Shown here: positions 747 to 13,936 of the stretch, piece after piece | How the letters are laid out: each line of letters begins with the position of its first letter | Position numbering within the stretch: the first letter of the stretch is position 1 | From: Thermoanaerobaculia bacterium | GTDB lineage: Bacteria; Acidobacteriota; Thermoanaerobaculia; UBA5066; Gp7-AA6 | Direction: 5' to 3' | Length of the DNA stretch: 64,000 bases | Assembly: GCA_038229875.1 (NCBI GenBank) | Contig: JBBROA010000003.1 | Coordinates: 1,465-65,464, forward strand | Position numbers and translations under genes: made by a program | Notes under the pieces: model-generated | What the model was told of the DNA's origin: nothing | Database searches by the model: none | What the model saw: only the letters and a program-made list of their open reading frames with translations

Positions 747-830
747 CGAATCCTCCTTCGCCTCAGCGTACAACCGCGCCGAAGACAGCACTCCCCGAAG
801 CTCGCGCACACCCCCATCCGCGTCTGGTCC

Positions 831-900
831 GCCTAACGTTCCAAAGCTCAGCGGCGGCAGCGGGGTAGCCGAGGGCGTCCGCTGCAGCGCGATGTTAGGC
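831..900 (-). repeat. attC site 1 (70 bp)
   Basis: GCCTAAC-N56-GTTAGGC imperfect palindrome with GCTCAG/CTGCAG L boxes; variant centre. Confidence 0.85.
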
Positions 901-1236
901 GGCATCACCGACCGCGGCTCTTCGGCCTCTTCCCAGTAGCCAACCGAAGCCGACTCCGGCGAGTACCGCTACCCCCCAGGGCAGTGCGACTGCGAACGGC
1001 CCTACGTCAATCCATGCGTGACGCAGCCCTTCGGGATTGCGTGACTCCACCATCGTGCGCAGGATCAAAGCGGAGACAGGTAGGCCTCCGAAAAACGCAA
1101 TATCCACGGTTACCCTGACCGCCAGATTCGAAAAGCGGAGGCGAAGCCACGCCAAAACGCAGGAGCATAACGACAGTAGAACCGTGTCGAGCGCGACAGC
1201 CCGCCAGAGCGACCCGCTGATGTCGAGAGGTGTCAC
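895..1236 (-). CDS. cassette ORF, small integral membrane protein (113 aa)
   Basis: ORF track; several hydrophobic helices; stop is the TAA of the attC R'' box; GTG start only 8 nt after upstream attC, so true start is uncertain. Confidence 0.55.
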   Translation of the reverse strand: MTPLDISGSLWRAVALDTVLLSLCSCVLAWLRLRFSNLAVRVTVDIAFFGGLPVSALILRTMVESRNPEGLRHAWIDVGPFAVALPWGVAVLAGVGFGWLLGRGRRAAVGDAA

Positions 1237-1244
1237 TTGGTGCC

Positions 1245-1314
1245 GCCTAACGTCTCAAAGCTCAGCCGCGGCGACGGCGAAGCCGGCGACGTCGGCTGCA
1301 GCGCGATGTTAGGC
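1245..1314 (-). repeat. attC site 2 (70 bp, consensus type)
   Basis: GCCTAACGTCTCAAAGCTCAGCCGCGGCGACGGCGAAGCCGGCGACGTCGGCTGCAGCGCGATGTTAGGC. Confidence 0.9.
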
Positions 1315-1674
1315 GTCAGGCGCATCCGTCGCATCTGCCGGAACCTCAGAAAGGACGGCCCGTGCATCGCCTTCTTCGTCCCGATCCACCTGAAGAAGTA
1401 TGGGACCGATCGTGATGTTGAACCCTGCCCCGACCCTCCCCGCGCCGAAAAGATCCTGCAGGCCGTCACCCTTAACCCAGTAATCAACTCCGGCTGAATC
1501 CAGCAGAGACTTTGCCATCTCCATCCGAATCGGATCTCCGGTCGCGAGGACCGTCACAATCTCGAGTGGCGGAGGCTCAGGCGGTGTGGGCGGCGGCTCG
1601 ACCAACGCCACATCGCAATCCGCGCAGCGGACGATTCCGGACTGGTACTCGTCACCGCAGCTTGGGCAGATCAT
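1309..1674 (-). CDS. cassette ORF, zinc-ribbon plus DUF2007-like protein (121 aa)
   Basis: CPSCGDEY..RCADCDV CxxC pairs, then IVTVLATGDPIRMEMAKSLLDSAGVDYWVKG resembling the DUF2007 fold; stop in attC R'' TAA. Confidence 0.65.
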   Translation of the reverse strand: MICPSCGDEYQSGIVRCADCDVALVEPPPTPPEPPPLEIVTVLATGDPIRMEMAKSLLDSAGVDYWVKGDGLQDLFGAGRVGAGFNITIGPILLQVDRDEEGDARAVLSEVPADATDAPDA

Positions 1675-1697
1675 TCCGGGCAGATAACCCTTCTGAC

Positions 1698-1767
1698 GCC
1701 TAACGTCCCAAAGCTCAGCCGCGGCGACGGCGAAGCCGGCGACGTCGGCTGCAGCGCGATGTTAGGC
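1698..1767 (-). repeat. attC site 3 (70 bp, consensus type)
   Basis: One mismatch to attC 2; GCCTAAC..GTTAGGC cores. Confidence 0.9.
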
Positions 1768-1776
1768 CGCTGCGCG

Positions 1777-2169
1777 TTACTCATTCCAATGGAACTCGGC
1801 CGTGTCGCCAGCAAAGACGATGAAGGAGTTCGTGTTGCTGATGAAAAGGTAGTGACAAAACGCATTCTCGGGCAAGCCGGCTGGCATCGCCAGCGTCGTA
1901 CTTGCGCGTGGGTCAGGGAAAGGGCCGTCCGAGGTGACCCAGAGCCCTAGTGGCAATTCCTGTTGATAGAGTTTACAGGGTGTTTCGGTTGCAAACGAGT
2001 GGAGGCCACGTACCTCCAAATTGCCGCGCTGAAACACCAAGTCGCTGCCCCTGACCCCGATAGGCACTGCCATGGCAAACCGGGCGCGCCGATTCGCGAA
2101 ATCGATCGCCACTGACTCGATCTGCGAGTGCCTCTGGATATCGATCGCCAAGAAGGGCATCGAGCTCAA
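1777..2169 (-). CDS. cassette ORF, hypothetical protein (130 aa)
   Basis: Only sizeable ORF filling cassette 1768-2199 in array orientation; no family recognised. Confidence 0.5.
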   Translation of the reverse strand: MSSMPFLAIDIQRHSQIESVAIDFANRRARFAMAVPIGVRGSDLVFQRGNLEVRGLHSFATETPCKLYQQELPLGLWVTSDGPFPDPRASTTLAMPAGLPENAFCHYLFISNTNSFIVFAGDTAEFHWNE

Positions 2170-2199
2170 GAGTTTTCGTGACGGCAGGCAACTTCAGCG

Positions 2200-2269
2200 G
2201 CCTAACGTCTCAAAGCTCAGCGGCGACGGCGGCGAAGCCGGCGACGTCCGCTGCAGCGCGATGTTAGGC
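2200..2269 (-). repeat. attC site 4 (70 bp)
   Basis: GCCTAAC..GTTAGGC; CAGCGG/CCGCTG stem variant shared with the other ORF-less cassettes. Confidence 0.9.
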
Positions 2270-2441
2270 GGTGCGCAGATTTGTAGGCCAGGACCAGACT
2301 CTCGCCACCTGGCCGCCCGAGGCGGCCCCTCTCCGACGCGTGGAGACTTCAGCCCTCTCCCGGCGGTATCCGCGATCACACCGCACCCTTGACCCTTGCG
2401 GCCGGCTGCCCAAGCCTCGATGCTGAAGACGACTCGCAACC
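2270..2441 (-). other. ORF-less 172-bp integron cassette, copy A of 4
   Basis: Aligns without indels to 8150-8321, 8392-8563 and 9018-9189; no conserved ORF; substitutions show no codon periodicity. Confidence 0.75.
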
Positions 2442-2511
2442 GCCTAACGGTCGGCGGCTCAGCGGCGACGGCGGCGAAGCCGACGGCGTCCGCTGCAGCC
2501 GCGGGTTAGGC
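2442..2511 (-). repeat. attC site 5 (70 bp, type 2)
   Basis: GCCTAACGGTCGGCGGCTCAGCGGCGACGGCGGCGAAGCCGACGGCGTCCGCTGCAGCCGCGGGTTAGGC. Confidence 0.9.
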
Positions 2512-2515
2512 CGCA

Positions 2516-3439
2516 TCAATATCCGTCCCAGGCGGCCCGTGTCCATCGTCCAAAACCGCGGTGGCTGTCTATCGCCGCAAGAGCGCGACCTGAGCTTGTA
2601 GACGGAAAGTGAAGACTTCTGGATACCGTTTGGTTGCCATCCACGTAGATGTCCTGCCGAACCCAACTGTTGCTTTCGTAGTGCAAATGAACCGCTGCGA
2701 ACTGTTCCGGGTAGCCGATACTCGGCCAGCGCACTGCAGGGGCGGTTATATAGTCCTCGACAGGAAAGCTGCTCGGTATTCCGTACCAGGGTCGTAAGTG
2801 AATTCCAGCGCCATAGAAACGGCCGCCGTTGATGGGCGGGTTGCTCCCCACGAACTCGTTTGCCACTACCCAGTCGCCGCCGCGGGCGGCATCCACGCTC
2901 AGAGATTGCAGCTGGCCGTCCGGGGAGTAGGTCGCCGCGAAAACGGCAACCCCTGGGTGGGCCCGCACGATCCTCACCAGGCTGACAGCGACCAGCTGGG
3001 CGGCCGATTCGGCCGGGACGGTCGCCGTCAGGGTCGGGAGGTCTGAGCTCACCAGCTTCGAATAGCTGTTGACTTCAAAACCGGTCGCCTGACCTCGGTA
3101 CCTGGAATCGTAGAAGTAGGTCGATTTCGCATAGACCGAACCGAATTCGCCACGAAGGAGCTCTTCGTTCTTACCTCGTTCAATCAAGCGGTATTGACGG
3201 TCCGTGAGGAAGGAGTTTCTGAGAGGGTACCTGCCACCCGTTTCCGCGCCGTATTCTGCGATCTGATGACCGGATAAAGCGAGATCGTCTCGGAATCCCT
3301 CTCGCAGTTGATTGCCAGAGGATTGAATCCGATCATGCATGACGAGGGTTGCTGTGGTCGAATCGATCGAAACGGAGCGGTACCACCCACCTGGACCGAC
3401 TCGACAGGCGAGAAGAACAACCGAGACCAAGAGACACAT
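2516..3439 (-). CDS. cassette ORF, putative lipoprotein or secreted protein (307 aa)
   Basis: Track ORF 2516..3577 trimmed to first in-cassette ATG (MCLLVSVVLLAC...); the frame stays open through upstream attC to ATG 3577. Confidence 0.6.
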   Translation of the reverse strand: MCLLVSVVLLACRVGPGGWYRSVSIDSTTATLVMHDRIQSSGNQLREGFRDDLALSGHQIAEYGAETGGRYPLRNSFLTDRQYRLIERGKNEELLRGEFGSVYAKSTYFYDSRYRGQATGFEVNSYSKLVSSDLPTLTATVPAESAAQLVAVSLVRIVRAHPGVAVFAATYSPDGQLQSLSVDAARGGDWVVANEFVGSNPPINGGRFYGAGIHLRPWYGIPSSFPVEDYITAPAVRWPSIGYPEQFAAVHLHYESNSWVRQDIYVDGNQTVSRSLHFPSTSSGRALAAIDSHRGFGRWTRAAWDGY

Positions 3440-3484
3440 CGCCGAGGGCGCGGGCAGGTGCCGGCTCTGTTGATTGTCCGTGCG

Positions 3485-3554
3485 GCCTAACGGCTGGCGG
3501 CTCAGCGGCGACGGCGGCGAAGCCGACGGCGTCCGCTGCAGCCGCGGGTTAGGC
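3485..3554 (-). repeat. attC site 6 (70 bp, type 2)
   Basis: Near-identical to attC 5. Confidence 0.9.
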
Positions 3555-3573
3555 CGCCTTGCCAACCCGAGGT

Positions 3574-3825
3574 TCATGGCTCTCCCCGAAAGCGACGCTG
3601 GGCGCTTCGAGCGCTTAGAAAAGCGCCAACCGCATAAAGCATGGCCCAGACTAAGTCGCCTCTGACGTTCTGCCGAGTGAGTGCCGGGCTAAAAAGCTTT
3701 CTGCTGTTCATCAGAAATGGTATCGCGTCGCACACCAGCAGAATTGCTGCAATCGCCAACACTACGGAGAGCGCCAGCATGCCGATCGCGACCAGCCGGC
3801 CGGAGAACTCGAGGTTTGGTTTCAT
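3574..3825 (-). CDS. cassette ORF, small 2-TM membrane protein (83 aa)
   Basis: ORF track; two hydrophobic helices (LVAIGMLALSVVLAIAAILLV; LVWAMLYAVGAFL). Confidence 0.55.
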   Translation of the reverse strand: MKPNLEFSGRLVAIGMLALSVVLAIAAILLVCDAIPFLMNSRKLFSPALTRQNVRGDLVWAMLYAVGAFLSARSAQRRFRGEP

Positions 3826-3848
3826 ACGGCGAGGGATCGCTCCTGGCG

Positions 3849-3918
3849 GCCTAACGTCCCAAAGCTCAGCCGCGGCGGCGGCGAAGCCGACGACGTCGGC
3901 TGCAGCGCGATGTTAGGC
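3849..3918 (-). repeat. attC site 7 (70 bp)
   Basis: GCCTAAC..GTTAGGC, consensus type with CGGCGGCGGCGAAGCCGACGACG centre. Confidence 0.9.
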
Positions 3919-3925
3919 GTCACGC

Positions 3926-4300
3926 TTACCATGTCCCGTCAGTTGAAATGATGACGTTGAGATCACCTGATTCAAGGAATTGGAAGCTCGCCGGTTGCGG
4001 CTCGAGAAAAGGATCGATCAGCTCCGCGACCTGAGCCAAACCCTCTCGATCCTGCACCCAGCGGAACTCATGGGTGCCGATCCGCCTTACCCCCGGCCGC
4101 CCTTCAACGTTTGTCATCATCAGCGCGCAACCATTCTTGCCGGTGACGCCGGGAAGTTCTCCGGCCAAGATTTCTTGATCGCGCTCAGCCGACAGACGAC
4201 TCGCCGCGTCACGAAGAGCTGCCACGCTCTGGGGTTCGAGGTCGCTAATCAGGATGGCAGGCGTATCCGCGCAGCGTTTCGAAATGAACTCAAGCGTCAT
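3926..4300 (-). CDS. cassette ORF, hypothetical cytoplasmic protein (124 aa)
   Basis: Fills cassette 3919-4314 in array orientation; no family recognised. Confidence 0.55.
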   Translation of the reverse strand: MTLEFISKRCADTPAILISDLEPQSVAALRDAASRLSAERDQEILAGELPGVTGKNGCALMMTNVEGRPGVRRIGTHEFRWVQDREGLAQVAELIDPFLEPQPASFQFLESGDLNVIISTDGTW

Positions 4301-4314
4301 GGGACCTTCGTGAC

Positions 4315-4384
4315 GCCTAACGTCACAAAGCTCAGCCGCGGCGACGGCGAAGCCGGCGACGTCGGCTGCAGCGCGATGTTAGGC
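4315..4384 (-). repeat. attC site 8 (70 bp)
   Basis: Consensus type. Confidence 0.9.
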
Positions 4385-4756
4385 CGCGGCAGTTTCACGT
4401 TGCTGTCTCCGATGTCGCTCGATCAGGTGACGGGTTCCAACGATCATCAAATAGAGGGCCACCGCCCAAATGACCAACTCGACAAAGGTTGCCAGCGCTA
4501 GGTACTTGCCGTTCGCTTCGTAGTGCGACAGATCGAAGCGAAATCCGAAGACTCGAAGAACGCGAGCCGCAAGCATGCTGGGACTCCAGCGCGAAAGACT
4601 CTGAACCCAACTGGGAGCTGGGCCCGCGAGGTACAGCGCGAATCGATGCTCGGGGTCGAGCCGTGCTGATGCAAGCAGCCAGAGGTAGTCCCATGCCGCG
4701 GCCGCGACCAAACAGGCTCCAGCCAGCCTCCATCCGGACGTCCTTCTAAAGCCCAT
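4379..4756 (-). CDS. cassette ORF, membrane protein (125 aa)
   Basis: ORF track; hydrophobic segments; stop in attC R'' TAA. Confidence 0.55.
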   Translation of the reverse strand: MGFRRTSGWRLAGACLVAAAAWDYLWLLASARLDPEHRFALYLAGPAPSWVQSLSRWSPSMLAARVLRVFGFRFDLSHYEANGKYLALATFVELVIWAVALYLMIVGTRHLIERHRRQQRETAAA

Positions 4757-4772
4757 CAGAAAACCTTCCGCG

Positions 4773-4842
4773 GCCTAACGTCCCAAAGCTCAGCCGCGGC
4801 GACGGCAACGCCGGCGACGTCGGCTGCAGCGCGATGTTAGGC
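4773..4842 (-). repeat. attC site 9 (70 bp)
   Basis: Consensus type. Confidence 0.9.
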
Positions 4843-5253
4843 CGGGGCATGAGTACTTCCTCTTTGGGGCTCGCCGGGTTCAACCGAAACCGAGACTCGT
4901 TGCGCCTCCAGGAACCCAGCAATGCCGTAGCACGGGTACAGGGTCACCCGAACTGCCTTTTCACTCACCTCGCATCCAAGACCAAAGATCGCGTTTTGAG
5001 TGCTGAAGTCGGCCAACTCTAGGTCCAAAACTCTCTCAAACGAGAACGTTACAACCGCGTGCCGATCAAGAACAAAACAGCCGGCCGCATTGATCTCCTC
5101 GGTCATGCGCCAAACATGAAGGCGCAGCCTTGATTGGCCTTCGCGACGCAGACTGAGTTCCAGCACTTCAGCATCATGGAAACTGGGCCAGCCGCCGAAC
5201 CACTCGACCAGCTGCTTCGCCCCGGGGATCGACGGCGCAAGAAGATCAGCCAT
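4837..5253 (-). CDS. cassette ORF, Imm50-like immunity protein (138 aa)
   Basis: LVEWFGGWPSFHDAEVLELSL... and ...VVTFSFERVLDLELADFSTQNAIFGL match my memory of the Imm50 (polymorphic-toxin immunity) signature; stop in attC R'' TAA. Confidence 0.6.
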   Translation of the reverse strand: MADLLAPSIPGAKQLVEWFGGWPSFHDAEVLELSLRREGQSRLRLHVWRMTEEINAAGCFVLDRHAVVTFSFERVLDLELADFSTQNAIFGLGCEVSEKAVRVTLYPCYGIAGFLEAQRVSVSVEPGEPQRGSTHAPA

Positions 5254-5263
5254 AACTTCCGCG

Positions 5264-5333
5264 GCCTAACGGCTTAGCGCTCAGCCGCGGCGGCGGCGGA
5301 GCCGACGACGTCGGCTGCAGCGCGATGTTAGGC
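5264..5333 (-). repeat. attC site 10 (70 bp)
   Basis: GCCTAACGGCTTAGCGCTCAGCCG...GTTAGGC. Confidence 0.9.
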
Positions 5334-5765
5334 ACCGGCCGTCTCCGCTGAATCTGCGTCGGAAATGATGTAGTGAGAAAGGTCAATGCCGATACCAAGG
5401 TTGCCTGCGAGGGCGAGAAGAGGCGCAGGGAGCTGGTCAGTCTGAGCGACGACATCTTCCCAGGCAAGCCCAAAGTCGAGGACCGACCCTTCGACCCCCG
5501 GGAAACTTACGATCCTCCGCAACTCAGCCGCGTGTTGCTCCAGAAATTGGACGGCATCTGTCACCGACCGGTCGAACTCGTGGAAATCTCGATCGGACAC
5601 GTCGAAATGAGCGCACGACACCTCGAAATGAGCGCCCTTCCTCTCGAAGATTCGCTGACGCCGCAGCTCGCCTCTTCGATCGACCCTGTACGGTTCGAGT
5701 GCTGTGAGCTTCGCGAGTTCGTCCACCGCTAGCTCGTGTCCCCACACTCTGAGAATGCAGGTCAT
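5328..5765 (-). CDS. cassette ORF, DUF4279-like protein (145 aa)
   Basis: N-terminal CILRVWGHELAVDELAKLTALEPYRVDRRGE pattern is typical of DUF4279; stop in attC R'' TAA. Confidence 0.5.
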   Translation of the reverse strand: MTCILRVWGHELAVDELAKLTALEPYRVDRRGELRRQRIFERKGAHFEVSCAHFDVSDRDFHEFDRSVTDAVQFLEQHAAELRRIVSFPGVEGSVLDFGLAWEDVVAQTDQLPAPLLALAGNLGIGIDLSHYIISDADSAETAGA

Positions 5766-5779
5766 AGGCTCCTTCCGGT

Positions 5780-5855
5780 GCCTAACGGCCTGCGCGTCAG
5801 CGGCGAGTGAGGAGGCGAAGCCGACGAACGAGTCCGCTGCACGCGCGTGTTAGGC
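5780..5855 (-). repeat. attC site 11 (76 bp, divergent centre)
   Basis: GCCTAACGGCCTGCGCGTCAGCGG...CCGCTGCACGCGCGTGTTAGGC. Confidence 0.8.
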
Positions 5856-5898
5856 CACGGCGCAACGTGGTCCGTGAGCGAGCAGGGCTTCCGGTCCG

Positions 5899-6198
5899 TC
5901 ATTCGCCTTCTACCACTGTTGCTACCCCGGTTGTCGTATTCACACGGACCAGCCAGTGATAGCCGGGTCGCGCGAACTTCTTCGTGCCCTGAATAAGAAA
6001 CTCCCAGTGAGCGGGGCTACCCGCTGCTTGCTTTACCGAGTACGTCTTCACGGTTTGCTTCGTGTACTTCAGAAATGCCTCCTCGGCAATTCGTCGGGCA
6101 TCTCTGGCGTCGGGAGGCCAGTGCGCCGCCGATGGTGTAGGTGTTGGCTGCGAGGCGATCGGCGTCGCGACCACTGGGGCGATCTGGAACAGCCCCAA
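5899..6198 (-). CDS. cassette ORF, small exported protein; start unresolved
   Basis: Track ORF 5899..6300 crosses attC 12; no in-cassette ATG, first alternative is TTG at 6198; hydrophobic IGAVVLLGLFQIAPVVA follows the attC-encoded stretch. Confidence 0.45.
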   Translation of the reverse strand: MGLFQIAPVVATPIASQPTPTPSAAHWPPDARDARRIAEEAFLKYTKQTVKTYSVKQAAGSPAHWEFLIQGTKKFARPGYHWLVRVNTTTGVATVVEGE

Positions 6199-6228
6199 GA
6201 GAACGACCGCACCTATACGACTTCCGTG

Positions 6229-6289
6229 GCCTAACGGCTTGCGGCTCAGCGGCGCCCGCGAGGGCGTCCGCTGCAGCCGCGGGTTAGGC
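6229..6289 (-). repeat. attC site 12 (61 bp, short type)
   Basis: GCCTAACGGCTTGCGGCTCAGCGGCGCCCGCGAGGGCGTCCGCTGCAGCCGCGGGTTAGGC. Confidence 0.85.
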
Positions 6290-6296
6290 GGCTGGC

Positions 6297-7019
6297 TCAC
6301 CGTCGCCCCGCCTTTCGGAAAGCGATCTGGAAGACTTCACTTACAAGCCAAGATCGTAGGTGCGTCCCGGCCAGCCTGTCCTTTTGGCCGAACCTGGTCG
6401 GTGCAAGCGACGCCAAGGCCCGGCCAATGTCGGGCTCATAGGTCTGATAAGTCGTGCCGGACCGGCTTACCTTCCAAGGAATCATGAAGGCCTGTTGAGC
6501 AGAGGACGAGAGACTCACCGTCGTTCCGTCGGCAAGGCCCACCACCGCGGACACGTGAGGGTAGTCATCAGTCCACCAGTGTCCTGGGGCGTAGTACTCA
6601 TCCAGAAGTCGGGAAATCAGTTCCACATCAGCTCGGGCGGCCTCGAATTCTTCCCGAACTCGCGGTGCCGCGTAAGTTGAATATAGCGCGTGGTGTACAC
6701 CACTATTCGCGATCCGAATATCCTGCGGCGTAGCCGTCTGAAGCCAGGAAACGAGGTCCGCGAGATCGCTTCCATGAAATTGCGGCTTCGGCGCTGTCTT
6801 CAAGCCTCGTAGCAATAGAGCCACAGCCTCCGAGCACTCCGCATGGTCACAGGCGACCGTGTATTCAGCGGGGTCGGGCGGAGTTGGGGTCGGACACGAG
6901 TCGTCTCCGCCCGCCGGCCGCGTTTCGATCACGCTAAGACCTTGCCAAGATGACGCGACGTGGATCCTGATCTGCTGGCTAGCAGATTGCGAGATCGCGT
7001 TGGCGGTTGACAAGGCCAT
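6297..7019 (-). CDS. cassette ORF, hypothetical exported protein (240 aa from ATG 7019)
   Basis: Track ORF 6297..7331 trimmed to first in-cassette ATG; the frame is open across attC 13 to ATG 7145. Confidence 0.55.
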   Translation of the reverse strand: MALSTANAISQSASQQIRIHVASSWQGLSVIETRPAGGDDSCPTPTPPDPAEYTVACDHAECSEAVALLLRGLKTAPKPQFHGSDLADLVSWLQTATPQDIRIANSGVHHALYSTYAAPRVREEFEAARADVELISRLLDEYYAPGHWWTDDYPHVSAVVGLADGTTVSLSSSAQQAFMIPWKVSRSGTTYQTYEPDIGRALASLAPTRFGQKDRLAGTHLRSWLVSEVFQIAFRKAGRR

Positions 7020-7061
7020 TGCAAGGCCCGTTGCGAGAGCAATCCCATGACTCGTGTGGCC

Positions 7062-7131
7062 GCCTAACGTCCCAAAGCTCAGCCGCGGCGACGGCGAAGC
7101 CGGCGACGTCGGCTGCAGCGCGATGTTAGGC
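7062..7131 (-). repeat. attC site 13 (70 bp)
   Basis: Consensus type. Confidence 0.9.
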
Positions 7132-7137
7132 CGAGCG

Positions 7138-7584
7138 CTACCCATGTGGCTCCCACATCCGAGCGATCGCCTTCGCCAACATCGGCGGCAAGCAATCACG
7201 GGCCGCGCAGAATTGTGGCTGGGTTGAGACCCATTCCACGCGAGCCCCATTTCGAAACCTGAGAAGGGCTCGAGCTGCCCGAGGTGGTTGTGCGACGCAG
7301 TCCACGCAGATGACGCAGGGCTCCGGTTCATATCGGATCACCACGTCCGCCTGGTCCGACGTGGGTGCCAGACTAGCTCCAGGCGACCATTTCAGAAGCC
7401 ACGGTCTGATCTGCTCAGCCGTATATGCGGCTGCCCAGCATTTCCCGTCCTCCACGAAGAACGATCGCGTTCGCGAGGAAGGAGGAAGAGGATGGGTTAG
7501 AGGAATTGGTCGATACGGTATGCAGCCGCTAAGGGCCGCCACGGCGGCCAGCCCGAAGACAAAGCAGTAAGGCGCCTTCGCTCG
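7138..7584 (-). CDS. cassette ORF, putative lipoprotein; start unresolved
   Basis: Track ORF 7138..7668 crosses attC 14; lipobox-like FGLAAVAALSGC just after the attC; no ATG inside the cassette. Confidence 0.5.
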   Translation of the reverse strand, partial: RAKAPYCFVFGLAAVAALSGCIPYRPIPLTHPLPPSSRTRSFFVEDGKCWAAAYTAEQIRPWLLKWSPGASLAPTSDQADVVIRYEPEPCVICVDCVAQPPRAARALLRFRNGARVEWVSTQPQFCAARDCLPPMLAKAIARMWEPHG

Positions 7585-7645
7585 GCCTAACGGATTTCGC
7601 TTCAGCGGCGAGCGCAAGCGAGTCCGCTGCAAGCGTGTGTTAGAC
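7585..7645 (-). repeat. attC site 14 (61 bp, short type, R' = GTTAGAC)
   Basis: GCCTAACGGATTTCGCTTCAGCGG...CCGCTGCAAGCGTGTGTTAGAC; stem changes are compensatory relative to the other attCs. Confidence 0.8.
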
Positions 7646-7657
7646 GGCGCCCGCCGT

Positions 7658-8062
7658 TCACGGGCCATACGTTGCCTGCGGCCAAACGAAGAGGAGAAAT
7701 AAGTAGCACGAGGCCGTCACCACCAAAGGGCCACGGAGGCTACGATGCGTCACCGTGGAGAGGGCCAGAGTAACTCCCGCGACGAGCAGAAAGAGGGCGG
7801 CATTTAAGGCGACCTCAACGGCGAGTATCGCGCCGAACGCCAGGACGGTCGTGCCTGTTAGCGCGACGAGGATCCCGCGTGAGTTCCAGAACAGGGCTTG
7901 CGCAAGGCGAGTGCCGAATCCGTGCCCGCCGAACAGGAAAGACTCTTCCGCTGGATGCAAGAGGAAAGTGCTGAGCGACACCAGAAGCGTTACAACTAGA
8001 AAGAAGCGGGCGGTTCTCGTGCCTGCTCGGCGAGCGCCGGAGGCAATTGTTTCAATGGTCAC
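7658..8062 (-). CDS. cassette ORF, multi-TM membrane protein (134 aa)
   Basis: ORF track; four hydrophobic helices. Confidence 0.55.
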   Translation of the reverse strand: MTIETIASGARRAGTRTARFFLVVTLLVSLSTFLLHPAEESFLFGGHGFGTRLAQALFWNSRGILVALTGTTVLAFGAILAVEVALNAALFLLVAGVTLALSTVTHRSLRGPLVVTASCYLFLLFVWPQATYGP

Positions 8063-8079
8063 GCCTGCGCCTTAGCGCC

Positions 8080-8149
8080 GCCTAACGTCTCAAAGCTCAG
8101 CGGCTCGCGCAGCGGAGCGGAGCGAGTCCGCTGCAGCGCGATGTTAGGC
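8080..8149 (-). repeat. attC site 15 (70 bp, private centre CTCGCGCAGCGGAGCGGAGCGAG)
   Basis: Same centre as attC 16 and 18, all of which belong to ORF-less cassettes. Confidence 0.9.
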
Positions 8150-8321
8150 GGTGCGCAGATTTGTAGGCCAGGACCGGACTCTCGCCGCCTGGCCACCCGA
8201 AGCGGCTCCTCTCCGACGCGTGGAAACTTGAGCCCTCTTCCGGCGGTATCGGTGATCACGCGGCACCTTCGAACCTTGCGGCCGGCTGGCCGAGCCTTGA
8301 GGCTGAAGATGACTCGCAGCC
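8150..8321 (-). other. ORF-less 172-bp integron cassette, copy B
   Basis: See copy A; indel-free alignment. Confidence 0.75.
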
Positions 8322-8391
8322 GCCTAACGTCCCAAAGCTCAGCGGCTCGCGCAGCGGAGCGGAGCGAGTCCGCTGCAGCGCGATGTTAGGC
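8322..8391 (-). repeat. attC site 16 (70 bp)
   Basis: Same private centre as attC 15 and 18. Confidence 0.9.
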
Positions 8392-8563
8392 GGTGCGCAG
8401 ATTTGCAGGACCGGACCAGACTCTCGCCGCTTGGCGGCCCGAAGTGGCTCCTCTCCGACGCGTGGAGACTTGAGCCCTCTCCCGCCGTCATCCGTGATCA
8501 TGCCGCACCTTTGACCCTTGCGGCCGGCTCCCCAAACCTTGATGCTGAAGACAAGTCGCAGCC
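8392..8563 (-). other. ORF-less 172-bp integron cassette, copy C
   Basis: See copy A. Confidence 0.75.
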
Positions 8564-8633
8564 GCCTAACGTCTCAAAGCTCAGCCGCGGCGGCGGCGAA
8601 GCCGACGACGTCGGCTGCAGCGCGATGTTAGGC
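8564..8633 (-). repeat. attC site 17 (70 bp)
   Basis: Consensus type. Confidence 0.9.
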
Positions 8634-8640
8634 CGCACGC

Positions 8641-8916
8641 CTACCATGCGAGCGCATGTCCCCGGATGAATCGCCAGAAGTAAACGGGCTCCGCAAAAGG
8701 ACCTAACAGAAAAATCGTCCAGAACCAGATCCGTTCCCTACCAGCTGGCACGCGGGAATTCTGCCGGATGTCCCAAAGATAAAAGAGCCATAAGCCAAAC
8801 TCGACAAGGACAAAACCAAACAGCGCCGCGCCGGGGATATCGACATCTGTGACGGCGAGAAGGAACGCGATCGGGATCTGCCCGAATGTCGCCAAGCCGA
8901 TCAGTGCCTTGCCCAT
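8641..8916 (-). CDS. cassette ORF, PLDc_N-like small membrane protein (91 aa)
   Basis: LFYLWDIRQNSRVPAGRERIWFWTIFLLGPFAEPVYFW resembles the PLD-nuclease N-terminal membrane domain. Confidence 0.55.
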   Translation of the reverse strand: MGKALIGLATFGQIPIAFLLAVTDVDIPGAALFGFVLVEFGLWLFYLWDIRQNSRVPAGRERIWFWTIFLLGPFAEPVYFWRFIRGHALAW

Positions 8917-8947
8917 ATCCCTATCGCCGACTGCGTCGCTTCGTGCG

Positions 8948-9017
8948 GCCTAACGTCCCAAAGCTCAGCGGCTCGCGCAGCGGAGCGGAGCGAGTCCGCT
9001 GCAGCGCGATGTTAGGC
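8948..9017 (-). repeat. attC site 18 (70 bp)
   Basis: Identical to attC 16. Confidence 0.9.
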
Positions 9018-9189
9018 GGTGCGCAGATTGGAAGCCTAGGACCGGACTCTCGCCGCACAGCCCCCCGAAGCGGCTCCTCTGCGACGCGTGGAGACTTGAG
9101 GCCTCTCCCGGCGGTATCCGTGATCACGCCTCACCCTTTAACCTTGCGGTCGGACGGCCAAGCCTCGACGCTGAAGGCAACTCGCAGCC
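9018..9189 (-). other. ORF-less 172-bp integron cassette, copy D
   Basis: See copy A. Confidence 0.75.
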
Positions 9190-9259
9190 GCCTAACGTCC
9201 CAAAGCTCAGCCGCGGCGGCGGCGAAGCCGACGACGTCGGCTGCAGCGCGATGTTAGGC
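9190..9259 (-). repeat. attC site 19 (70 bp)
   Basis: Consensus type. Confidence 0.9.
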
Positions 9260-9511
9260 GGCCGAGGCAAGCAGTGCTCCTAGCGCCATCCGGCCGAAGT
9301 TGGCCAACTGCGCCTCCGAAAACTCGAAGCGTCTTGCCTGGGCCGCATCCACATCGGCGAACGTGATGAAGACGTCGTGTTCCCATTTCCGTGCGGCCGA
9401 GTCCGCCAAGGTGACCATGTCGAGGGTGAGTTCGAGGGTTCCACCCATCGGTCTGACCGAAATGCACAGCCCTCGCCCACCCCGAATGCCGTCGTCCTTC
9501 GCACGTGCCAT
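9254..9511 (-). CDS. first cassette ORF, hypothetical protein (85 aa)
   Basis: Track ORF 9254..9556 trimmed to ATG 9511 behind AGGAGG (GTTAGGCGTCCAAAGATAGGAGGTCGCATG); stop in attC R'' TAA. Confidence 0.5.
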   Translation of the reverse strand: MARAKDDGIRGGRGLCISVRPMGGTLELTLDMVTLADSAARKWEHDVFITFADVDAAQARRFEFSEAQLANFGRMALGALLASAA

Positions 9512-9531
9512 GCGACCTCCTATCTTTGGAC

Positions 9532-9747
9532 GCCTAACATGTATTAGACCGCCCAATGCTGGCCGCCAACGCTGCGCAACGCGCTCCCCAATTCTTCCTC
9601 GCCGCTTCCTTCATTCGCACGAGATCTCTCTTCCTCTCACCATGTTGAGACTCCGGCAACCCTCTCGCGGTTCCCCCGTTAGCGAACCAAAACTGTCGCC
9701 TAACGTCCCTGCGAGCAGCAGCGGATTGGGAAATGGTGCTCATGGCC
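9532..9747 (-). other. intI-to-array junction containing candidate attI
   Basis: Minus strand has GTTAGGC cores at 9538-9532 and 9704-9698. GTTGCGC (9580-9574) and GTTGGCG (9570-9564) half-site-like repeats lie upstream of the 9538 core. Confidence 0.4.
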
Positions 9748-10755
9748 TCACAGGTTGTCCGCCGGGCTGCGGATGCCTCGGCCGCCGGTCCGATTCAAGA
9801 CGTGTGTGTAGATCATCGTTGTTTTGACGTCGGCGTGGCCCAGGAGCTCCTGGATGGTCCGGATATCGTAACCGTCTTCGAGCAGGTGGGTCGCGAAAGA
9901 GTGTCGCAGGGTGTGGCAGTGGACCGGTTTCTTGATGCCCGCGTCCCGTACGGCCTGGGCGAACGCCCTCTGCACGACGCTTTCATGCAAGTGATGGCGT
10001 CGCTCGACTTGTGTGCGCGGGTCGCGGCTTCGCTTTTCCGCCGGGAAGAGCCATTGCCATCCCCAATCGCGATCCGCGCCCGGGTACTTTCTCGCGAGCG
10101 CATCCGGAAGGTAGACGTCCCCGAAACCCTCCTCCAGGTCTTTCTCGTGCAGGCGCTTGACCGCCGACATCCAGGAGGCGAGCGGCGTCATCAGGGACTC
10201 GGGTAACGGCACCGGTCGGTCCCGGCCTCCTTTCGCTTCGCGCACCGTGATCCGGTGGAAGGCGTACTCCACGTCTTTGATCCGGAGCCGCAGGCACTCG
10301 AGCAGGCGCATTCCGCTTCCGTAGAGCAGCAGACAGATGACCCGCGGGTTTCCGGACAGGCGACCCACGATCGACCGGACCTCGGCGCGGGTGAGACCGG
10401 CCGGCTTCGTCCGGGGGCGTTGGGCGCGCACGACGTGGTCGAGAGGGCCGACCGGAGTCTCGAGCACGTGCCGGTATACGAACAGGATTGCGGCGAGCGC
10501 CTGGTTCTGCGTCGACGCGCTCACGCCGTGGGTCACCGCGAGGTCGAAGAGGAACGCGTTGATCTCCTGCTCCCCCATTTCCTTCGGATGCCGCTTGCCG
10601 TGGAAAAGGATATAGCGGCGGATCCAGCCGACGTAGGCCTCCTCGGTTCGGAGGCTGTAGTGGCGCGCCCGGATCGCGATCCGGACACGGTCGAGGAAGC
10701 GCGGCGGGCGCTGCGCGGAGTCGGGAGTCGGCCACGGCCCGGAGATCGTCGTCAT
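9748..10755 (-). CDS. intI: integron integrase (tyrosine recombinase)
   Basis: 335 aa; [36 protein letters not shown], IntI-specific insert [48 protein letters not shown] (R-H-R-Y). Confidence 0.95.
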
Positions 10756-10761
10756 CGCTTC

Positions 10762-11229
10762 TTACTTCTTGTCGCTGGCCAATCGGGAGGAGTGGCGCGG
10801 CGCAACCGTTCGCCCCGGACGATCCCCCTCACCTCCTCCCCGAGCGCGGGGAGAGGGAGAAAGTCCGCGGTCCGCCTCGACATAGCCCTCTCCGCGGGCG
10901 CGGGGAGAGGAGGAAGTTCCTGGAGCTTTGCGACGGGTCAGCGCGACGCCGGATAGGCCGGTTTTCTTTTCGAGCAGCCGCCGCTTCTGGACGGCATCGA
11001 GCATCTGCTGCGCGATGTAGAAGTCCGCGGACTTCTGCGTGCCGAGCGCTTCGATCGCTTTCAGCGTCGCTTCCGCGCGCGTCAGGTTTGGGTTTTCAGT
11101 CAGGAGATCGCGGATCACGTTCGAGAGCAGGGTTCGGTTCTGCCCGAACCCTCCCTGTCCGAGTGTCCGGACCGCTTCCAGCAGTTCTTTGAATGCGATG
11201 GCGAGAACCTGTCCTTCCCACCCGGTCAT
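10762..11229 (-). CDS. hypothetical protein orf155 between imuB and intI
   Basis: AAGGAG then ATG at 11229; helical-looking N-terminal 90 aa; C-terminal third is translation of two GC-rich palindromic repeats, so the true stop and function are uncertain. Confidence 0.45.
   Translation of the reverse strand: MTGWEGQVLAIAFKELLEAVRTLGQGGFGQNRTLLSNVIRDLLTENPNLTRAEATLKAIEALGTQKSADFYIAQQMLDAVQKRRLLEKKTGLSGVALTRRKAPGTSSSPRARGEGYVEADRGLSPSPRARGGGEGDRPGRTVAPRHSSRLASDKK
10836..10853. repeat. GC-rich palindromic REP-like element
   Basis: CTCCCCG-AGCG-CGGGGAG. Confidence 0.5.
10887..10910. repeat. GC-rich palindromic REP-like element
   Basis: CCTCTCCGCGGGCGCGGGGAGAGG. Confidence 0.5.
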
Positions 11230-11263: not shown

Positions 11264-12973
11264 TCAGTCATAGAGACCGTCCGCGAACCAGCTCTCGCCC
11301 CGCCGGTCGCGGAAGATTCGATACAGGCCGCCGTCGGACAGCTCGACGTCCCAGTAGTCGCGCTCCGCCGGAGAGTCCGACCACCAGCCTTCCTCGAGAG
11401 ACCACGGGCCGGCGGCGACGCGCACTGTCCCCTGGATGTCGAGAGAGGAGCCGGGCGCGGACTTGATCGACAGGAGACGCGGCGACCGCGTCTGAGAGAT
11501 CGGGACGACGACGGCGGCGGCGGCGGCGCGCCGGCCCTCTCCGTTCCCCGCCGCGGAAACCGCTGCAGCCTGGGCGGACGCGCGTCGGTTGCGGCTCTCG
11601 CCGGCGGCAACGGTGAGAGGCAACGGGGTCCGGACGGCGGCGGCGGGAGGAGTCGGCGTCTCGGCGGTTAAGACCTCGAGCGCGATCGGCGGCCGCAGCA
11701 CCCGCACCGCGAGAAGTCCGCGGCCGCGCCTGGGTGTGCGCGCGATCTCGGGCGGCGCCGGCGGCGCGTAGGAGGCGAGCGCGTACCGCTCCGGGCGGTG
11801 GCCGTCCACCGTGCGCGGAGATCCGACGCGGTCGGCGCCGAGCATCGAGGCGAGGCGCGCGATCGTCGTCGCGAGGCGGTCCGGCGACAGCGCGGCCGGT
11901 CCGAAGAGCGAGAGCTGCGCGCGCCGCGGCTTGTCCGGATGCGCGGAGAACGAGAACCCTGCGACCGCGGCGCCGGGCGGCCTCGCTTCGAGCTCGAGCC
12001 GCAGGAGCGTCAAGAGCGTCTTGACATCGCGGGTCGGCGCCGGCAGCGAGATCCCGCGCGCATCCACGCCCTCGGGATCGAGCTTCAGCGTCACCTCGAG
12101 CCGCGTGCACGCCAGCGCCTGCGATTCCAGCCGCGCGACGAGACGCTCGAGCGCTGCGTGCCCGACGAAGAGGAACGGCTCGAGAGTCACGAGCGGCCAC
12201 TCGAGGTCCATCCCCTCCGACAGCACGAGCGCGGGGACGCGCGGCTCGAGCGGACGCGGGTCGAACCCGCGCGCGGTCGCGTGGAGCTCGCGTCCGAGCT
12301 CGCCCAGGCGGCTGGCGACTTCTCCCTCCGGCAGGCGCGCGAGCTCGCCGATCGAGTCGATTCCCCACTGCGTCAGTCGTGCGCCGATCTCCATCGCGGG
12401 AGCGAGCCGGTCGAGCGGCAGGGGGGCCAGGAACTTCGCCTCGTCTCCCTCCGGCACGACCTTCGGCGAATCGGGAAGCGACGCCGCCACGCGGGCCGCG
12501 AGCTTCGAGCCCGCGATCCCGACGCGCGCCGGAAGACCGGAGGCTTCGACCGCGGCGATCAGGCGCTGGCCGAGGAGCGACTCGGCGCGTTCCGCGGACA
12601 CGCCGTCCTTCGGAGAGAGACCGGGCAGACCGTCGAGGTCGAGGTACACCGAGCCCTCCCCCGCGTCCTCGACGCGAGGCGAGAACGAGTCGGCGATCTC
12701 GAGAAGCGCCTCCTGAGCCGCGCGCTCGCTTTCCGCGTCGCGGCCGCGCGCGACCAGCTTCGGGACGATCGCGCGGGACTGCGGGAGCGTCATCCCCTGG
12801 CGGATCCCCGCGCGGCGCGCCGGACGGGACGCCGCGATCACGCGCGCCGCGTTCCCGTTGCCCTCGAAGATCGCGACCGGCTCCCCCTTCAGCTCCGGCT
12901 CGCTGCGCAGTCTCGCCGCGAGAGAGAAGAGAGGGACATCGAGGCAGGCGATGCGGGCGCGGGGACGCGTCAT
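11264..12973 (-). CDS. imuB: ImuB, Y-family polymerase-like mutagenesis protein
   Basis: Track ORF 11264..13909 trimmed to MTRPRARIACLDVPLFSLAARLR...; typical ImuB N-terminus and YWDVEL...YRIF C-terminus; ATGA overlap with the imuA stop. Confidence 0.85.
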   Translation of the reverse strand: MTRPRARIACLDVPLFSLAARLRSEPELKGEPVAIFEGNGNAARVIAASRPARRAGIRQGMTLPQSRAIVPKLVARGRDAESERAAQEALLEIADSFSPRVEDAGEGSVYLDLDGLPGLSPKDGVSAERAESLLGQRLIAAVEASGLPARVGIAGSKLAARVAASLPDSPKVVPEGDEAKFLAPLPLDRLAPAMEIGARLTQWGIDSIGELARLPEGEVASRLGELGRELHATARGFDPRPLEPRVPALVLSEGMDLEWPLVTLEPFLFVGHAALERLVARLESQALACTRLEVTLKLDPEGVDARGISLPAPTRDVKTLLTLLRLELEARPPGAAVAGFSFSAHPDKPRRAQLSLFGPAALSPDRLATTIARLASMLGADRVGSPRTVDGHRPERYALASYAPPAPPEIARTPRRGRGLLAVRVLRPPIALEVLTAETPTPPAAAVRTPLPLTVAAGESRNRRASAQAAAVSAAGNGEGRRAAAAAVVVPISQTRSPRLLSIKSAPGSSLDIQGTVRVAAGPWSLEEGWWSDSPAERDYWDVELSDGGLYRIFRDRRGESWFADGLYD

Positions 12974-13899
12974 GCCGAGTCGCGGATCGGGACGAGGAGG
13001 GCGGAGACGGCGCGCTCCGGGCTCCCTGCCGCCCTCTCCCCCGGCGCGCGGGGAGAGACGGGTGGCACGGGAGTGAGCGAAGACGCGGGCTCCGGGGCAG
13101 ACGTAAGGGAAAGCGAAAGCGAAAGCGCGCCGCGCGAATCCGGGGGCGGCGCCTGCCCGACGCGAAGCGAGAGCGGGACAGAAGTGCCGGGGGTCTCGCG
13201 CCCGAACTTGTCGAGCGAGACACGGGACGAGATCCCCTCGAGAAGACGCGGCGATTTTCCCGAGCCGAGCCACGCCGGGCGCGCGACGTTGGTTCCGAGA
13301 ACCGCTTCCGCCGCGATCCCCGTCATCCGCCACGGCGTCACGACGAGCAGGCACGCGCCCTGGGCCTGGGCGGCGCGGGCGAGGCGCACCCAGGCGGCAT
13401 CGGGCAGGTACCGCGCGCCACGAGGCGAGAGGCCGAGGTCGGCGACGACGAGCGGGAATCCCGCCGAGAGAAGCATCTCCGCGCAAGCGAGCGCGGACTT
13501 GAGCCGCGTCGGGCGGACCCACAGGAGCCGCGCGAGGTCGATCCCGGCGCGCCCGGCCGCTTCCGGATCCAGGTGATCGCCGAGGTCGACGAGCGCGGCC
13601 GGCTCTCCCGCGGAAGTTGCGGAGGCAAGCGCCGCGAGCGCGAGCGAGTGGCGACCGGAGGAGCGGCGGCCGACGAGCTCGACGAGCTTCCCTTTCGGAA
13701 GGCCTCCTAAGAGCCGCTCGATCGGGGCGTGCGCGTTGGCGGCGGACCCGGCAACCGGAGCGGCCGAACGCGCGGGAGGGGCGAGCTCCGAGGCGCGGGT
13801 CAGCCGGGCCGAGGTGCCGCTCAGGAGCGAGCCGCGCTTTGCCGTCGTCAGCGCGCCTGCCCGGAGGAGCTGCTCGAGGGCGATTCGCGAGGCGCTCAT
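12970..13899 (-). CDS. imuA: ImuA, RecA-fold SOS mutagenesis protein
   Basis: Track ORF 12970..14181 trimmed to MSASRIALEQLL...; GGLPKGKLVELVGRRSSGRHSLALAALA degenerate Walker-A typical of ImuA. Confidence 0.8.
   Translation of the reverse strand: MSASRIALEQLLRAGALTTAKRGSLLSGTSARLTRASELAPPARSAAPVAGSAANAHAPIERLLGGLPKGKLVELVGRRSSGRHSLALAALASATSAGEPAALVDLGDHLDPEAAGRAGIDLARLLWVRPTRLKSALACAEMLLSAGFPLVVADLGLSPRGARYLPDAAWVRLARAAQAQGACLLVVTPWRMTGIAAEAVLGTNVARPAWLGSGKSPRLLEGISSRVSLDKFGRETPGTSVPLSLRVGQAPPPDSRGALSLSLSLTSAPEPASSLTPVPPVSPRAPGERAAGSPERAVSALLVPIRDSA
13034..13057. repeat. GC-rich palindromic REP-like element inside imuA 3' tail
   Basis: CTCTCCCCCGGCGCGCGGGGAGAG. Confidence 0.5.
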
Positions 13900-13936
13900 G
13901 CCGCCACACCTTTCTCCGGCGGAGAGCCGGAAAAGG

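What the first reader, a model, noticed from the sequence alone, without database searches (positions are those of the whole stretch)
8080..9259. A 172-bp ORF-less cassette is the most abundant cassette (3 copies here, 1 at 2270) and evolves without indels
Copies B (8150-8321), C (8392-8563), D (9018-9189) and A (2270-2441) are each exactly 172 bp and align with no indel. They differ at 48 columns, roughly 85-90 percent pairwise identity. The variable columns fall 15/16/17 over the three codon phases, and no frame has a conserved start or stop, so protein coding is unlikely. Zero indels at this divergence argues for constraint. Conserved short inverted repeats include GCCGC-N13-GCGGC (cols 35-57). 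TCTCC-N7-GGAGA-N9-TCTCC (cols 61-91) offers two mutually exclusive pairings, which is switch-like. CCTTGCGG reads on the minus strand as CCGCAAGG, a GNRA-type loop. The attCs attached on the left of B, C and D share a private centre, CTCGCGCAGCGGAGCGGAGCGAG. This shows the cassette plus attC propagates as a unit. The element could be a structured sRNA, a regulatory or promoter cassette, or a protein-binding decoy.
Basis: seen in the sequence. Interest (0 to 1): 0.65.

Follow-up and report, generated by a model that had tools for sequence, protein, structure and literature searches.

The report
Abundant gene-less integron cassette family
The four 172-bp repeats are copies of a small non-coding integron cassette that is common in soil Acidobacteriota integrons; it shows no sign of encoding a protein or a structured RNA, and its role (expression element or selfish passenger) is still open.

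Summary
Four 172-bp copies align without gaps, with 48 variable columns spread 16/15/17 over codon phases and 81-88% identity. They are the only repeated cassette in an 18-attC array beside an intI gene that points the same way as the cassettes. Cassettes read on the minus strand, so each unit is 242 bp: core plus the attC on its left. Relatives occur in Acidobacteriota-type integrons from MAGs and, as fragments, in many soil, sediment and permafrost metagenomes. There the element reaches roughly 5-25% of the depth of this attC type. It is the first cassette after attI in two related integrons. In one contig it is fused as a leader to two ORFs.

No Rfam hit was found. Folding is no more stable than shuffled sequence. 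Covariation is absent on both strands. The TCTCC/GGAGA hairpin is destroyed in two relatives. No frame looks coding. Across 11 lineages there are about 161 substitutions against two 1-nt indels. The interior drifts almost uniformly.

My best guess (0.35) is a cis-acting promoter or leader cassette. A selfish minimal cassette (0.3) and a weakly structured sRNA (0.2) remain open.

The parts
8086..8327 (-). Cassette B. Core 8150-8321 plus its own attC 8080-8149 with the private centre. The crossover G lies at 8086.
8328..8569 (-). Cassette C. Core 8392-8563 plus its own attC 8322-8391 with the private centre. It lies in tandem with B.
8954..9195 (-). Cassette D. Core 9018-9189 plus its own attC 8948-9017 with the private centre. 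It is the second cassette after attI.
2206..2447 (-). Cassette A. Core 2270-2441 plus attC 2200-2269 with the array-typical centre. It lies far from attI in the array.
9538..9747 (-). attI region between the intI stop codon and the first crossover box GTTAGGC (9538-9532). It is nearly identical to the attI of L002, L098 and L099.
9748..10755 (-). intI, an integron-type tyrosine recombinase of 335 aa. It is transcribed toward the array, on the same strand as the cassette ORFs.
831..9259 (-). Cassette array with 18 exact attC matches (GCCTAAC...GTTAGGC, 61-76 bp). The ORF cassettes start with an SD and ATG 10-20 nt after GTTAGGC.

Best explanation
The element is a gene-less integron cassette: a 172-bp non-coding core plus a 70-bp attC. 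IntI mobilises it as a 242-bp unit in chromosomal integrons of soil Acidobacteriota (Thermoanaerobaculia-like).

I think it most likely acts in cis on expression of the array. It would serve as a promoter and/or 5' leader cassette that supplies or modulates transcription for the promoterless ORF cassettes downstream. In these integrons intI points into the array, so there is no classical divergent Pc/Pint region.

Shown:
- it is a bona fide, repeatedly captured cassette
- it is non-coding
- it sits preferentially at the attI end
- it can be fused as a leader to ORFs

Inferred:
- that it initiates or tunes transcription
- that the invariant AT-rich patch CAAATCT, 8 nt from its 3' end, is a candidate -10-like element
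For: Cassette status:
- It is bounded by attC sites in an array next to intI and attI.
- It is found in at least six other contexts: L002, L005/L007, L001/L008, L098 and L099.

Position and context:
- It is the first cassette after attI in L002 (IntI 88.6% identical to the window's) and in L099 (IntI 94%). It is third in L098. It is 2nd, 4th, 5th and about 17th in the window.
- In L008 an IS end cuts the upstream attC. There the element runs directly, with no attC, into a 96-nt spacer and two ORFs before the next attC, so it forms a 5' leader.
- Ordinary cassettes here carry only an SD and ATG right after GTTAGGC. They therefore need transcription from upstream.

Conservation:
- The only AT-rich patch is invariant and lies at a fixed distance from the 3' junction. 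The 3' 14-mer and one internal 12-mer are the only significantly conserved blocks.

Precedent:
- Most gene-less cassettes tested in Vibrio had sense-strand promoter activity that software did not predict (PMC11014356).
- ORF-less cassettes of Treponema integrons also act as promoters (PMC6557892).
Against: - A consensus scan found no sigma-70-like promoter on either strand. A relaxed scan found only weak matches that use the attC's TAACAT.
- The candidate -35 (GCGAGA) is changed to GCGCCA in L098/L099.
- The core is 65-68% GC.
- Most of the interior evolves almost uniformly (negative-binomial alpha about 3-4). That is more than a promoter needs and fits unconstrained filler equally well.
- True soil metatranscriptomes contain this integron's attC sequences but not the element.
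- The bias toward attI is also what high mobility alone would produce.
Confidence: 0.35

Rival explanations
1. Selfish minimal cassette. The core is functionless filler and the unit persists because it is an unusually mobile, very small cassette. IntI excises it as a 242-nt circle and re-inserts it at attI, and it spreads between genomes. Only the recombination-related ends and a minimum length are constrained.
For: - It is the smallest core in the array (172 bp against 294 bp or more) and the only multi-copy one.
- Copies within one array differ by 12-19%, and their nearest relatives lie in other genomes: A and L005 99.4%, B and X2c 92.7%. This suggests repeated capture from a pool.
- Its depth is about 5-25% of the depth of this attC type in several soil metagenomes.
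- It is enriched next to attI, where new cassettes enter.
- It has a private attC centre in B, C, D, L005, L098, L099 and upstream in L008.
- Substitutions are nearly uniform, with no coding or structure signal.
- Its GC content is close to the host's and above that of the other cassettes.
- Its conserved termini extend the attC stem in the circular form, as do the ends of every other cassette here.
Against: - Length is held at 172 +/- 1 bp through about 161 substitutions. A mere minimum-size limit would not exclude small insertions.
- The internal 12-mer CCGGCCGCAAGG and the patch CAAATC are conserved without a recombination rationale.
- Selfish amplification of cassettes is not an established category.
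- The L008 fusion shows the core retained without its attC.
Confidence: 0.3
2. Small regulatory RNA. The cassette is transcribed from the platform or from read-through and acts in trans or antisense through short conserved seed regions. The attC hairpin would serve as its 3' structure.
For: - The pattern of short invariant blocks in a variable body resembles seed-type conservation.
- A position next to attI would give expression.
- Multiple diverged copies resemble sibling sRNAs.
- Two GC-rich helices (cols 5-12/42-50 and 122-128/138-144) can form in nearly all copies.
- There is precedent for a cassette-borne sRNA, sRNA-Xcc1 in Xanthomonas (bioRxiv 10.1101/2025.06.18.660453).
- One contig each in two ambiguously labelled 'RNA-Seq' soil runs covers the element.
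Against: - No Rfam match, even at E<=10.
- MFE z-scores from -0.3 to +2.0 on both strands.
- Positive covariation term, with 4 compensatory pairs against many broken cells.
- The shuffle control is not significant.
- No terminator was found.
- The element is absent from six true soil metatranscriptomes that do hold this integron's attC.
- Power is low, with only 11 lineages.
Confidence: 0.2
3. Translated leader or micro-ORF. A GTG/ATG at column 69, preceded by AAGG(G/T)G, opens a frame that runs through the attC. Translation as such, not the peptide, would melt the attC hairpin and help expression of the next cassette.
For: - The frame from column 69 is open in all copies except the frameshifted L002. 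The one change in the start codon is GTG to ATG, in copy C.
- Small ORFs that help translation across attC are mentioned in the literature (PMC11511950).
Against: - A simulation shows the open frame is not surprising (P=0.2).
- The SD-like stretch is among the most variable parts.
- L002 has a 1-nt deletion inside the frame.
- There is no third-position excess: parsimony changes per phase are 50/41/42.
- Peptide identity (about 70%) is below nucleotide identity (about 80%) between the consensus and L098.
- Protein searches found no family.
Confidence: 0.07

Closest known systems
Gene-less (ORF-less) integron cassettes with promoter activity (Vibrio superintegrons, Blanco et al. 2024, PMC11014356; Treponema oral integrons, Tansirichaiya et al. 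2019, PMC6557892)
   Same: It is a short cassette bounded by attC with no credible ORF. It sits among promoterless ORF cassettes and can occupy the first position. In those studies promoters were not predictable in silico.
   Different: The host is a GC-rich Acidobacteriota rather than an AT-rich Vibrio or Treponema. There is no sequence similarity. No promoter motif is recognisable and no activity has been measured. This family is multi-copy and very abundant in environmental pools.
sRNA-Xcc1, the cassette-borne sRNA of Xanthomonas integrons
   Same: Both are non-coding elements carried in integron cassettes and spread horizontally among arrays.
   Different: No Rfam family matched the element, even at E<=10. 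sRNA-Xcc1 sits with symE and is oriented against Pc. Here the cassette holds nothing else and its transcription is unproven.
MITE-like non-autonomous mobile elements
   Same: It is small, non-coding and multi-copy. It depends on an enzyme encoded elsewhere (IntI) and has short complementary termini.
   Different: Mobility is by attC x attI/attC site-specific recombination, not transposition. There are no target-site duplications. The terminal complementarity is the cassette-specific extension of the attC stem, and all cassettes here share it.

Membership tests
Integron gene cassette | Bounded by attC sites with inverse core (RYYYAAC) and core (GTTRRRY) boxes | tested here: met
   GCCTAAC...GTTAGGC sites of 70 bp flank every copy. 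There are 18 in the array against 0 expected by chance.
Integron gene cassette | Lies in an array adjacent to an intI gene and attI | tested here: met
   The ORF at 9748-10755 has Phage_integrase and SAM_4 domains. Its relatives are integron integrases with arrays downstream. attI is conserved with L002, L098 and L099.
Integron gene cassette | The same unit is found in different arrays or positions, which shows mobility | tested here: met
   Four positions in the window, plus L002, L005/L007, L001/L008, L098 and L099, all with different neighbours.
Gene-less cassette | No conserved ORF with start and stop, and no coding substitution pattern | tested here: met
   Variable columns split 16/15/17 over phases and parsimony changes 50/41/42. 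One-nt indels occur in L002 and L099. The ORF-maintenance simulation is not significant (P=0.2). Protein searches found no homologues.
Promoter-bearing gene-less cassette | Measured promoter activity or a mapped transcription start | not testable with these tools
   Only contig-level metatranscriptome data could be consulted. The element is absent from six true RNA runs.
Promoter-bearing gene-less cassette | Recognisable sigma-70 -35/-10 pair conserved among copies | tested here: not met
   The scan gave 0 sites. Only weak 7/12 matches appeared, and they use the attC's TAACAT. The literature says such scans are unreliable.
Known RNA family (Rfam 15, including cassette-borne sRNAs, riboswitches and ribozymes) | Covariance-model match | tested here: not met
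   No hit at gathering score in the whole window. At E<=10 in 1-11000 there was only a weak xerDC-motif hit, and it lies on an attC.
Structured non-coding RNA (novel) | Excess folding stability and compensatory base changes | tested here: inconclusive
   z-scores run from -0.3 to +2.0. The covariation term is +1.3 to +1.6. In the shuffle control, 29-38 of 500 shuffles reach the observed values. Only 11 lineages are available, so power is low.
MITE | Terminal inverted repeats with target-site duplication, inserted outside attC context | tested here: not met
   Seven of the eight copies with both flanks read lie exactly between attC or attI boxes. The eighth (L008) keeps the upstream box but runs into ORFs instead of its own attC. 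There is no TSD. No copy was found elsewhere in the 64-kb window or in 90 loci.

The most novel reading that the evidence does not exclude
The element is a previously undescribed class of integron component specific to soil Acidobacteriota. One version is a dedicated 'array-driver' cassette, a promoter or leader that the integron keeps at its attI end because intI is co-oriented and no classical Pc exists. The other version is a true cassette parasite, which would be the first documented selfish non-coding cassette exploiting IntI. Either way it makes up a sizeable share of the environmental cassette pool.
Probability: 0.25. Interest if true: 0.6.

Novelty: new member of a known kind. Interest (0 to 1): 0.4.

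Why it matters
Gene-less cassettes are the least understood part of integrons. Experiments in Vibrio and Treponema suggest they control expression of otherwise silent arrays. This family is small, easy to synthesise, widespread in soils, and sits at the entry point of integrons whose integrase faces the array. That makes it a convenient handle on two questions. The first is how cassette arrays are expressed in non-proteobacterial, GC-rich hosts. The second is whether cassettes can behave as selfish elements. If it turns out to be plain filler, it is still a useful neutral marker for cassette flux in soil.

Tried and rejected
- **Rfam.** Gathering threshold on the whole window and E<=10 on 1-11000 gave nothing relevant.
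- **Protein route to collect homologues.** I translated two open frames and searched 5.8 billion proteins. Only the Burkholderiales-MAG ORF came back.
- **JGI metagenome contigs.** An exact pattern and a back-translated profile gave no true homologue. L009 and L010 are false positives.
- **IntI-neighbour arrays.** Eighty loci hold no further copy.
- **Coding hypotheses.** I checked all six frames, phase counts and an ORF-maintenance simulation, and rejected coding.
- **Conserved helices.** An exhaustive search for helices kept in all sequences found nothing longer than 5-6 bp and no helix of 5 bp or more with a double-sided change.
Rejected because it is lost in L098/L099.
- **Other motifs.** I considered by eye sigma-54, ECF, ops/RfaH-like, LexA-box and CsrA-sponge (GGA count) readings. 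I dropped them for lack of conserved spacing or enrichment.
- **Palindromic hexamers.** They are not enriched over expectation (own estimate).
- **Metatranscriptome evidence.** Only attC-containing transcripts were found, not the element.
- **Pfam on neighbouring cassette ORFs and the L008 ORFs.** No families matched.

Full report
**What is there**

Window 1-9700 is an integron cassette array. Eighteen attC sites of the form GCCTAAC...GTTAGGC (61-76 bp) occur between 831 and 9259, against none expected by chance. The cassette ORFs lie on the minus strand. They start with an SD and ATG 10-20 nt after GTTAGGC.

A 335-aa tyrosine recombinase with Phage_integrase and SAM_4 domains lies at 9748-10755, also on the minus strand. 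Its 3' end therefore faces the array. The best relatives of this IntI in GTDB genomes are uncultured Acidobacteriota MAGs (64-67% identity), and their arrays also lie downstream on the same strand. Two closer relatives turned up later. L099, from a Thermoanaerobaculia MAG, has an IntI 94% identical to the window's. L002, from 'Acidobacteria bacterium MAG7', has one 88.6% identical. Both have near-identical attI regions. The host is therefore an Acidobacteriota, probably Thermoanaerobaculia-like. The integron is of the co-oriented ('inverted') type.

**Checking the observation**

I count 48 variable columns, distributed 16/15/17 over the three phases. Pairwise identity is 80.8-87.8%. A self-comparison of the array shows this is the only cassette core present more than once.

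Because cassettes read on the minus strand, the attC to the left of each copy is that copy's own attC. The mobile unit is 242 bp: A 2447..2206, B 8327..8086, C 8569..8328, D 9195..8954.

B, C and D carry attCs that are identical but for one base and share a private centre. A carries the centre that is common in this array. A copy in another MAG (L005/L007) has a core 99.4% identical to A yet carries the private centre. The core-attC linkage is therefore usual but not absolute.

**Relatives elsewhere**

Pattern scans of 185,579 species-representative genomes found six further copies:
- L005/L007, a contig binned as Burkholderiales
- L001/L008, binned as Gemmatales
- L002, Acidobacteria MAG7
- L098 and L099, a Thermoanaerobaculia MAG

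. All carry the same attC type. The non-Acidobacteriota labels are more likely binning errors than proof of cross-phylum spread, but I could not test that.

JGI metagenome contigs gave nothing. The protein-database route also failed.

Logan contigs of soil, sediment and permafrost metagenomes hold many fragments at 80-95% identity, mostly with 0-2 gaps. In those runs the element's contig depth is roughly 5-25% of the depth of the shared attC. It is therefore a major member of the environmental pool of cassettes with this attC type. This is a rough figure, because contig depth is flat.

From single-contig runs I rebuilt three more sequences: X12c, X10c and X2c. That gives 11 distinct lineages.

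**Position and context**

The element is the first cassette after attI in L002 and L099. It is the third in L098. In the window it is the 2nd, 4th, 5th and about the 17th. In X2 the assembly closes on itself through about 60 bases, which indicates tandem copies like B-C.

In L008 an IS3-like end interrupts the upstream attC. There the element is followed directly by a 96-nt spacer and two ORFs before the next attC, with no attC of its own. In that contig it forms the 5' leader of a two-gene cassette.

**Not a protein**

- No frame has a conserved start and stop.
- Parsimony changes fall 50/41/42 over the phases.
- L002 has a 1-nt deletion and L099 a 1-nt insertion.
- One frame on the cassette strand is open in almost all copies, and a GTG/ATG at column 69 follows an AAGG-like stretch. 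A simulation with the observed number and spectrum of substitutions leaves that frame open as often as observed (P=0.2).
- Peptide identity is below nucleotide identity.

**No evidence for a structured RNA**

- Rfam gives nothing.
- Minimum free energies are no lower than those of dinucleotide shuffles on either strand (z from -0.3 to +2.0).
- RNAalifold on 7 and then 9 sequences gives an unfavourable covariation term on both strands.
- For the best consensus structure, 29-38 of 500 column shuffles reach the observed values. That is within the range seen for unconstrained alignments.
- An exhaustive search found no helix longer than 5-6 bp that all sequences can form.
GCCGC-N13-GCGGC has an uncompensated mismatch on whichever strand is chosen. 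B's two changes in the TCTCC/GGAGA set are not in partner positions. In L098/L099 the hairpin becomes TTGCC...GCACA.

With 11 lineages the power is low. A loosely structured or seed-type sRNA is not excluded.

**What is constrained**

Across the 11 lineages I infer about 161 substitution events but only two single-base indels, plus one compensated pair in X10c.

Among-site rate variation is weak, with variance/mean about 1.3-1.4 and negative-binomial alpha about 3-4. Only two blocks stand out. These are CCGGCCGCAAGG (cassette-strand columns 43-54) and the 3' end CAAATCTGCGCACC (columns 165-178). The permutation test gives P=0.004 for two 12-column windows with at most one change. The second genome scan required the 3' block, so L098 and L099 are biased for it.

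Part of the terminal conservation has a simple explanation. In this array every cassette's own 5' start is complementary to its own 3' end for 4-6 bp beyond the R boxes (own mean 3.7 bp against 0.8 for mismatched pairs). This would lengthen the attC stem in the excised circle. The element's GGCGG(C)TGCG / CGCA-CCGCC ends fit that rule.

The core is 65-68% GC, above the other cassettes (57-62%) and close to the host genome.

**Transcription**

Six true soil metatranscriptomes contain contigs with this integron's attC (the 2442-2511 type) flanked by other cassettes. Such arrays are therefore transcribed in soil. None of those runs contains the element. Two runs labelled 'RNA-Seq' but with genomic or metagenomic source hold one contig each over the element. 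I do not count these as evidence. Contigs carry no strand information, and absence from them is weak evidence.

**Interpretation**

The element is a gene-less integron cassette, which is a known kind. In Vibrio superintegrons most gene-less cassettes had sense-strand promoter activity that prediction software missed (PMC11014356). ORF-less cassettes from Treponema integrons also act as promoters (PMC6557892).

Several findings make a cis-acting promoter or leader role my preferred explanation, at about 0.35. The ORF cassettes are promoterless. intI is co-oriented. The element sits at the array's entry. L008 shows a leader-like fusion. The 3' AT-rich patch is invariant. Against it, no promoter motif is recognisable, the candidate -35 is not conserved, and the interior drifts.

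A selfish minimal cassette is nearly as likely, at about 0.3. It explains the abundance, the diverged multi-copy state, the attI-proximal bias, the private attC, the uniform drift and the host-like GC. It does not easily explain the sharp length conservation or the internal conserved 12-mer.

A seed-type sRNA (about 0.2) and a translated leader (about 0.07) remain possible.

**Novelty**

This is a new member of a known kind. What is new is the host group, the abundance and the attI-proximal habit. No new mechanism has been demonstrated.

Noticed in passing
window 9748-10755 (-) and array 831-9538; also L011-L017, L002, L098, L099: intI is transcribed toward the cassette array, on the same strand as the cassette ORFs. 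The same holds in all related Acidobacteriota integrons fetched. There is therefore no classical divergent Pint/Pc arrangement.
   Followed up: partly
window array, all cassettes between 831 and 9259: Each cassette's own 5' start (after GTTAGGC) is complementary to its own 3' end (before GCCTAAC) for 4-6 bp. The own-cassette mean is 3.7 bp against 0.8 bp for mismatched pairs. This would extend the attC stem only in the excised circular form.
   Followed up: yes
L014 8119-8335 and 11006-11217: A second, unrelated pair of small cassettes (217 and 212 bp, 78% identical over 143 bp, with indels) has stops in all six frames. It lies in another Acidobacteriota integron. Multi-copy gene-less cassettes may be recurrent in this group.
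   Followed up: partly
L008 1-146 and 324-1557: An IS3-family transposase 3' end and terminal repeat interrupt an attC that carries the private centre. Downstream the element lacks its own attC and is fused to ORFs 421-795 and 839-1462, neither of which has a Pfam match.
   Followed up: partly
window 9660-9705 (-); L002 2365-2400; L098 about 1085-1125: The attI region holds a conserved GTTAGGC-N13-GCCTAAC box pair just after the intI stop codon. It looks like an empty mini-cassette junction or a degenerate attC.
   Followed up: no
window 11264-13909 (-): A long ORF with an impB/mucB/samB (Y-family polymerase, ImuB-like) domain lies about 500 bp from the 5' end of intI. It may belong to an SOS mutagenesis gene set placed next to the integron.
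   Followed up: no
window 2442-2511 (attC): Contigs in six true soil metatranscriptomes carry this attC variant flanked by unrelated cassettes. Arrays of this integron type are therefore transcribed in soil.
   Followed up: partly
L005/L007 (binned Burkholderiales), L001/L008 (binned Gemmatales): Short contigs carrying the same attC type and the element are assigned to non-Acidobacteriota MAGs. This points to probable mis-binning of repeat-rich integron contigs, or less likely to cross-phylum cassette transfer.
   Followed up: no
L002 1331-1414: The IntI gene of Acidobacteria MAG7 aligns to the window IntI in two frames that join near residue 29-30. This indicates a frameshift, from either an assembly error or an inactivated integrase.
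   Followed up: no
L098 272-453 (-) and 514-943 (-): In the Thermoanaerobaculia MAG the element is preceded by a 182-bp cassette with no obvious sense ORF. Before that lies a first cassette encoding a small protein that I guess, from reading its translation, to be glyoxalase/VOC-like (no family search was run on it). The same MAG carries two integron platforms, one with a truncated intI.
   Followed up: no
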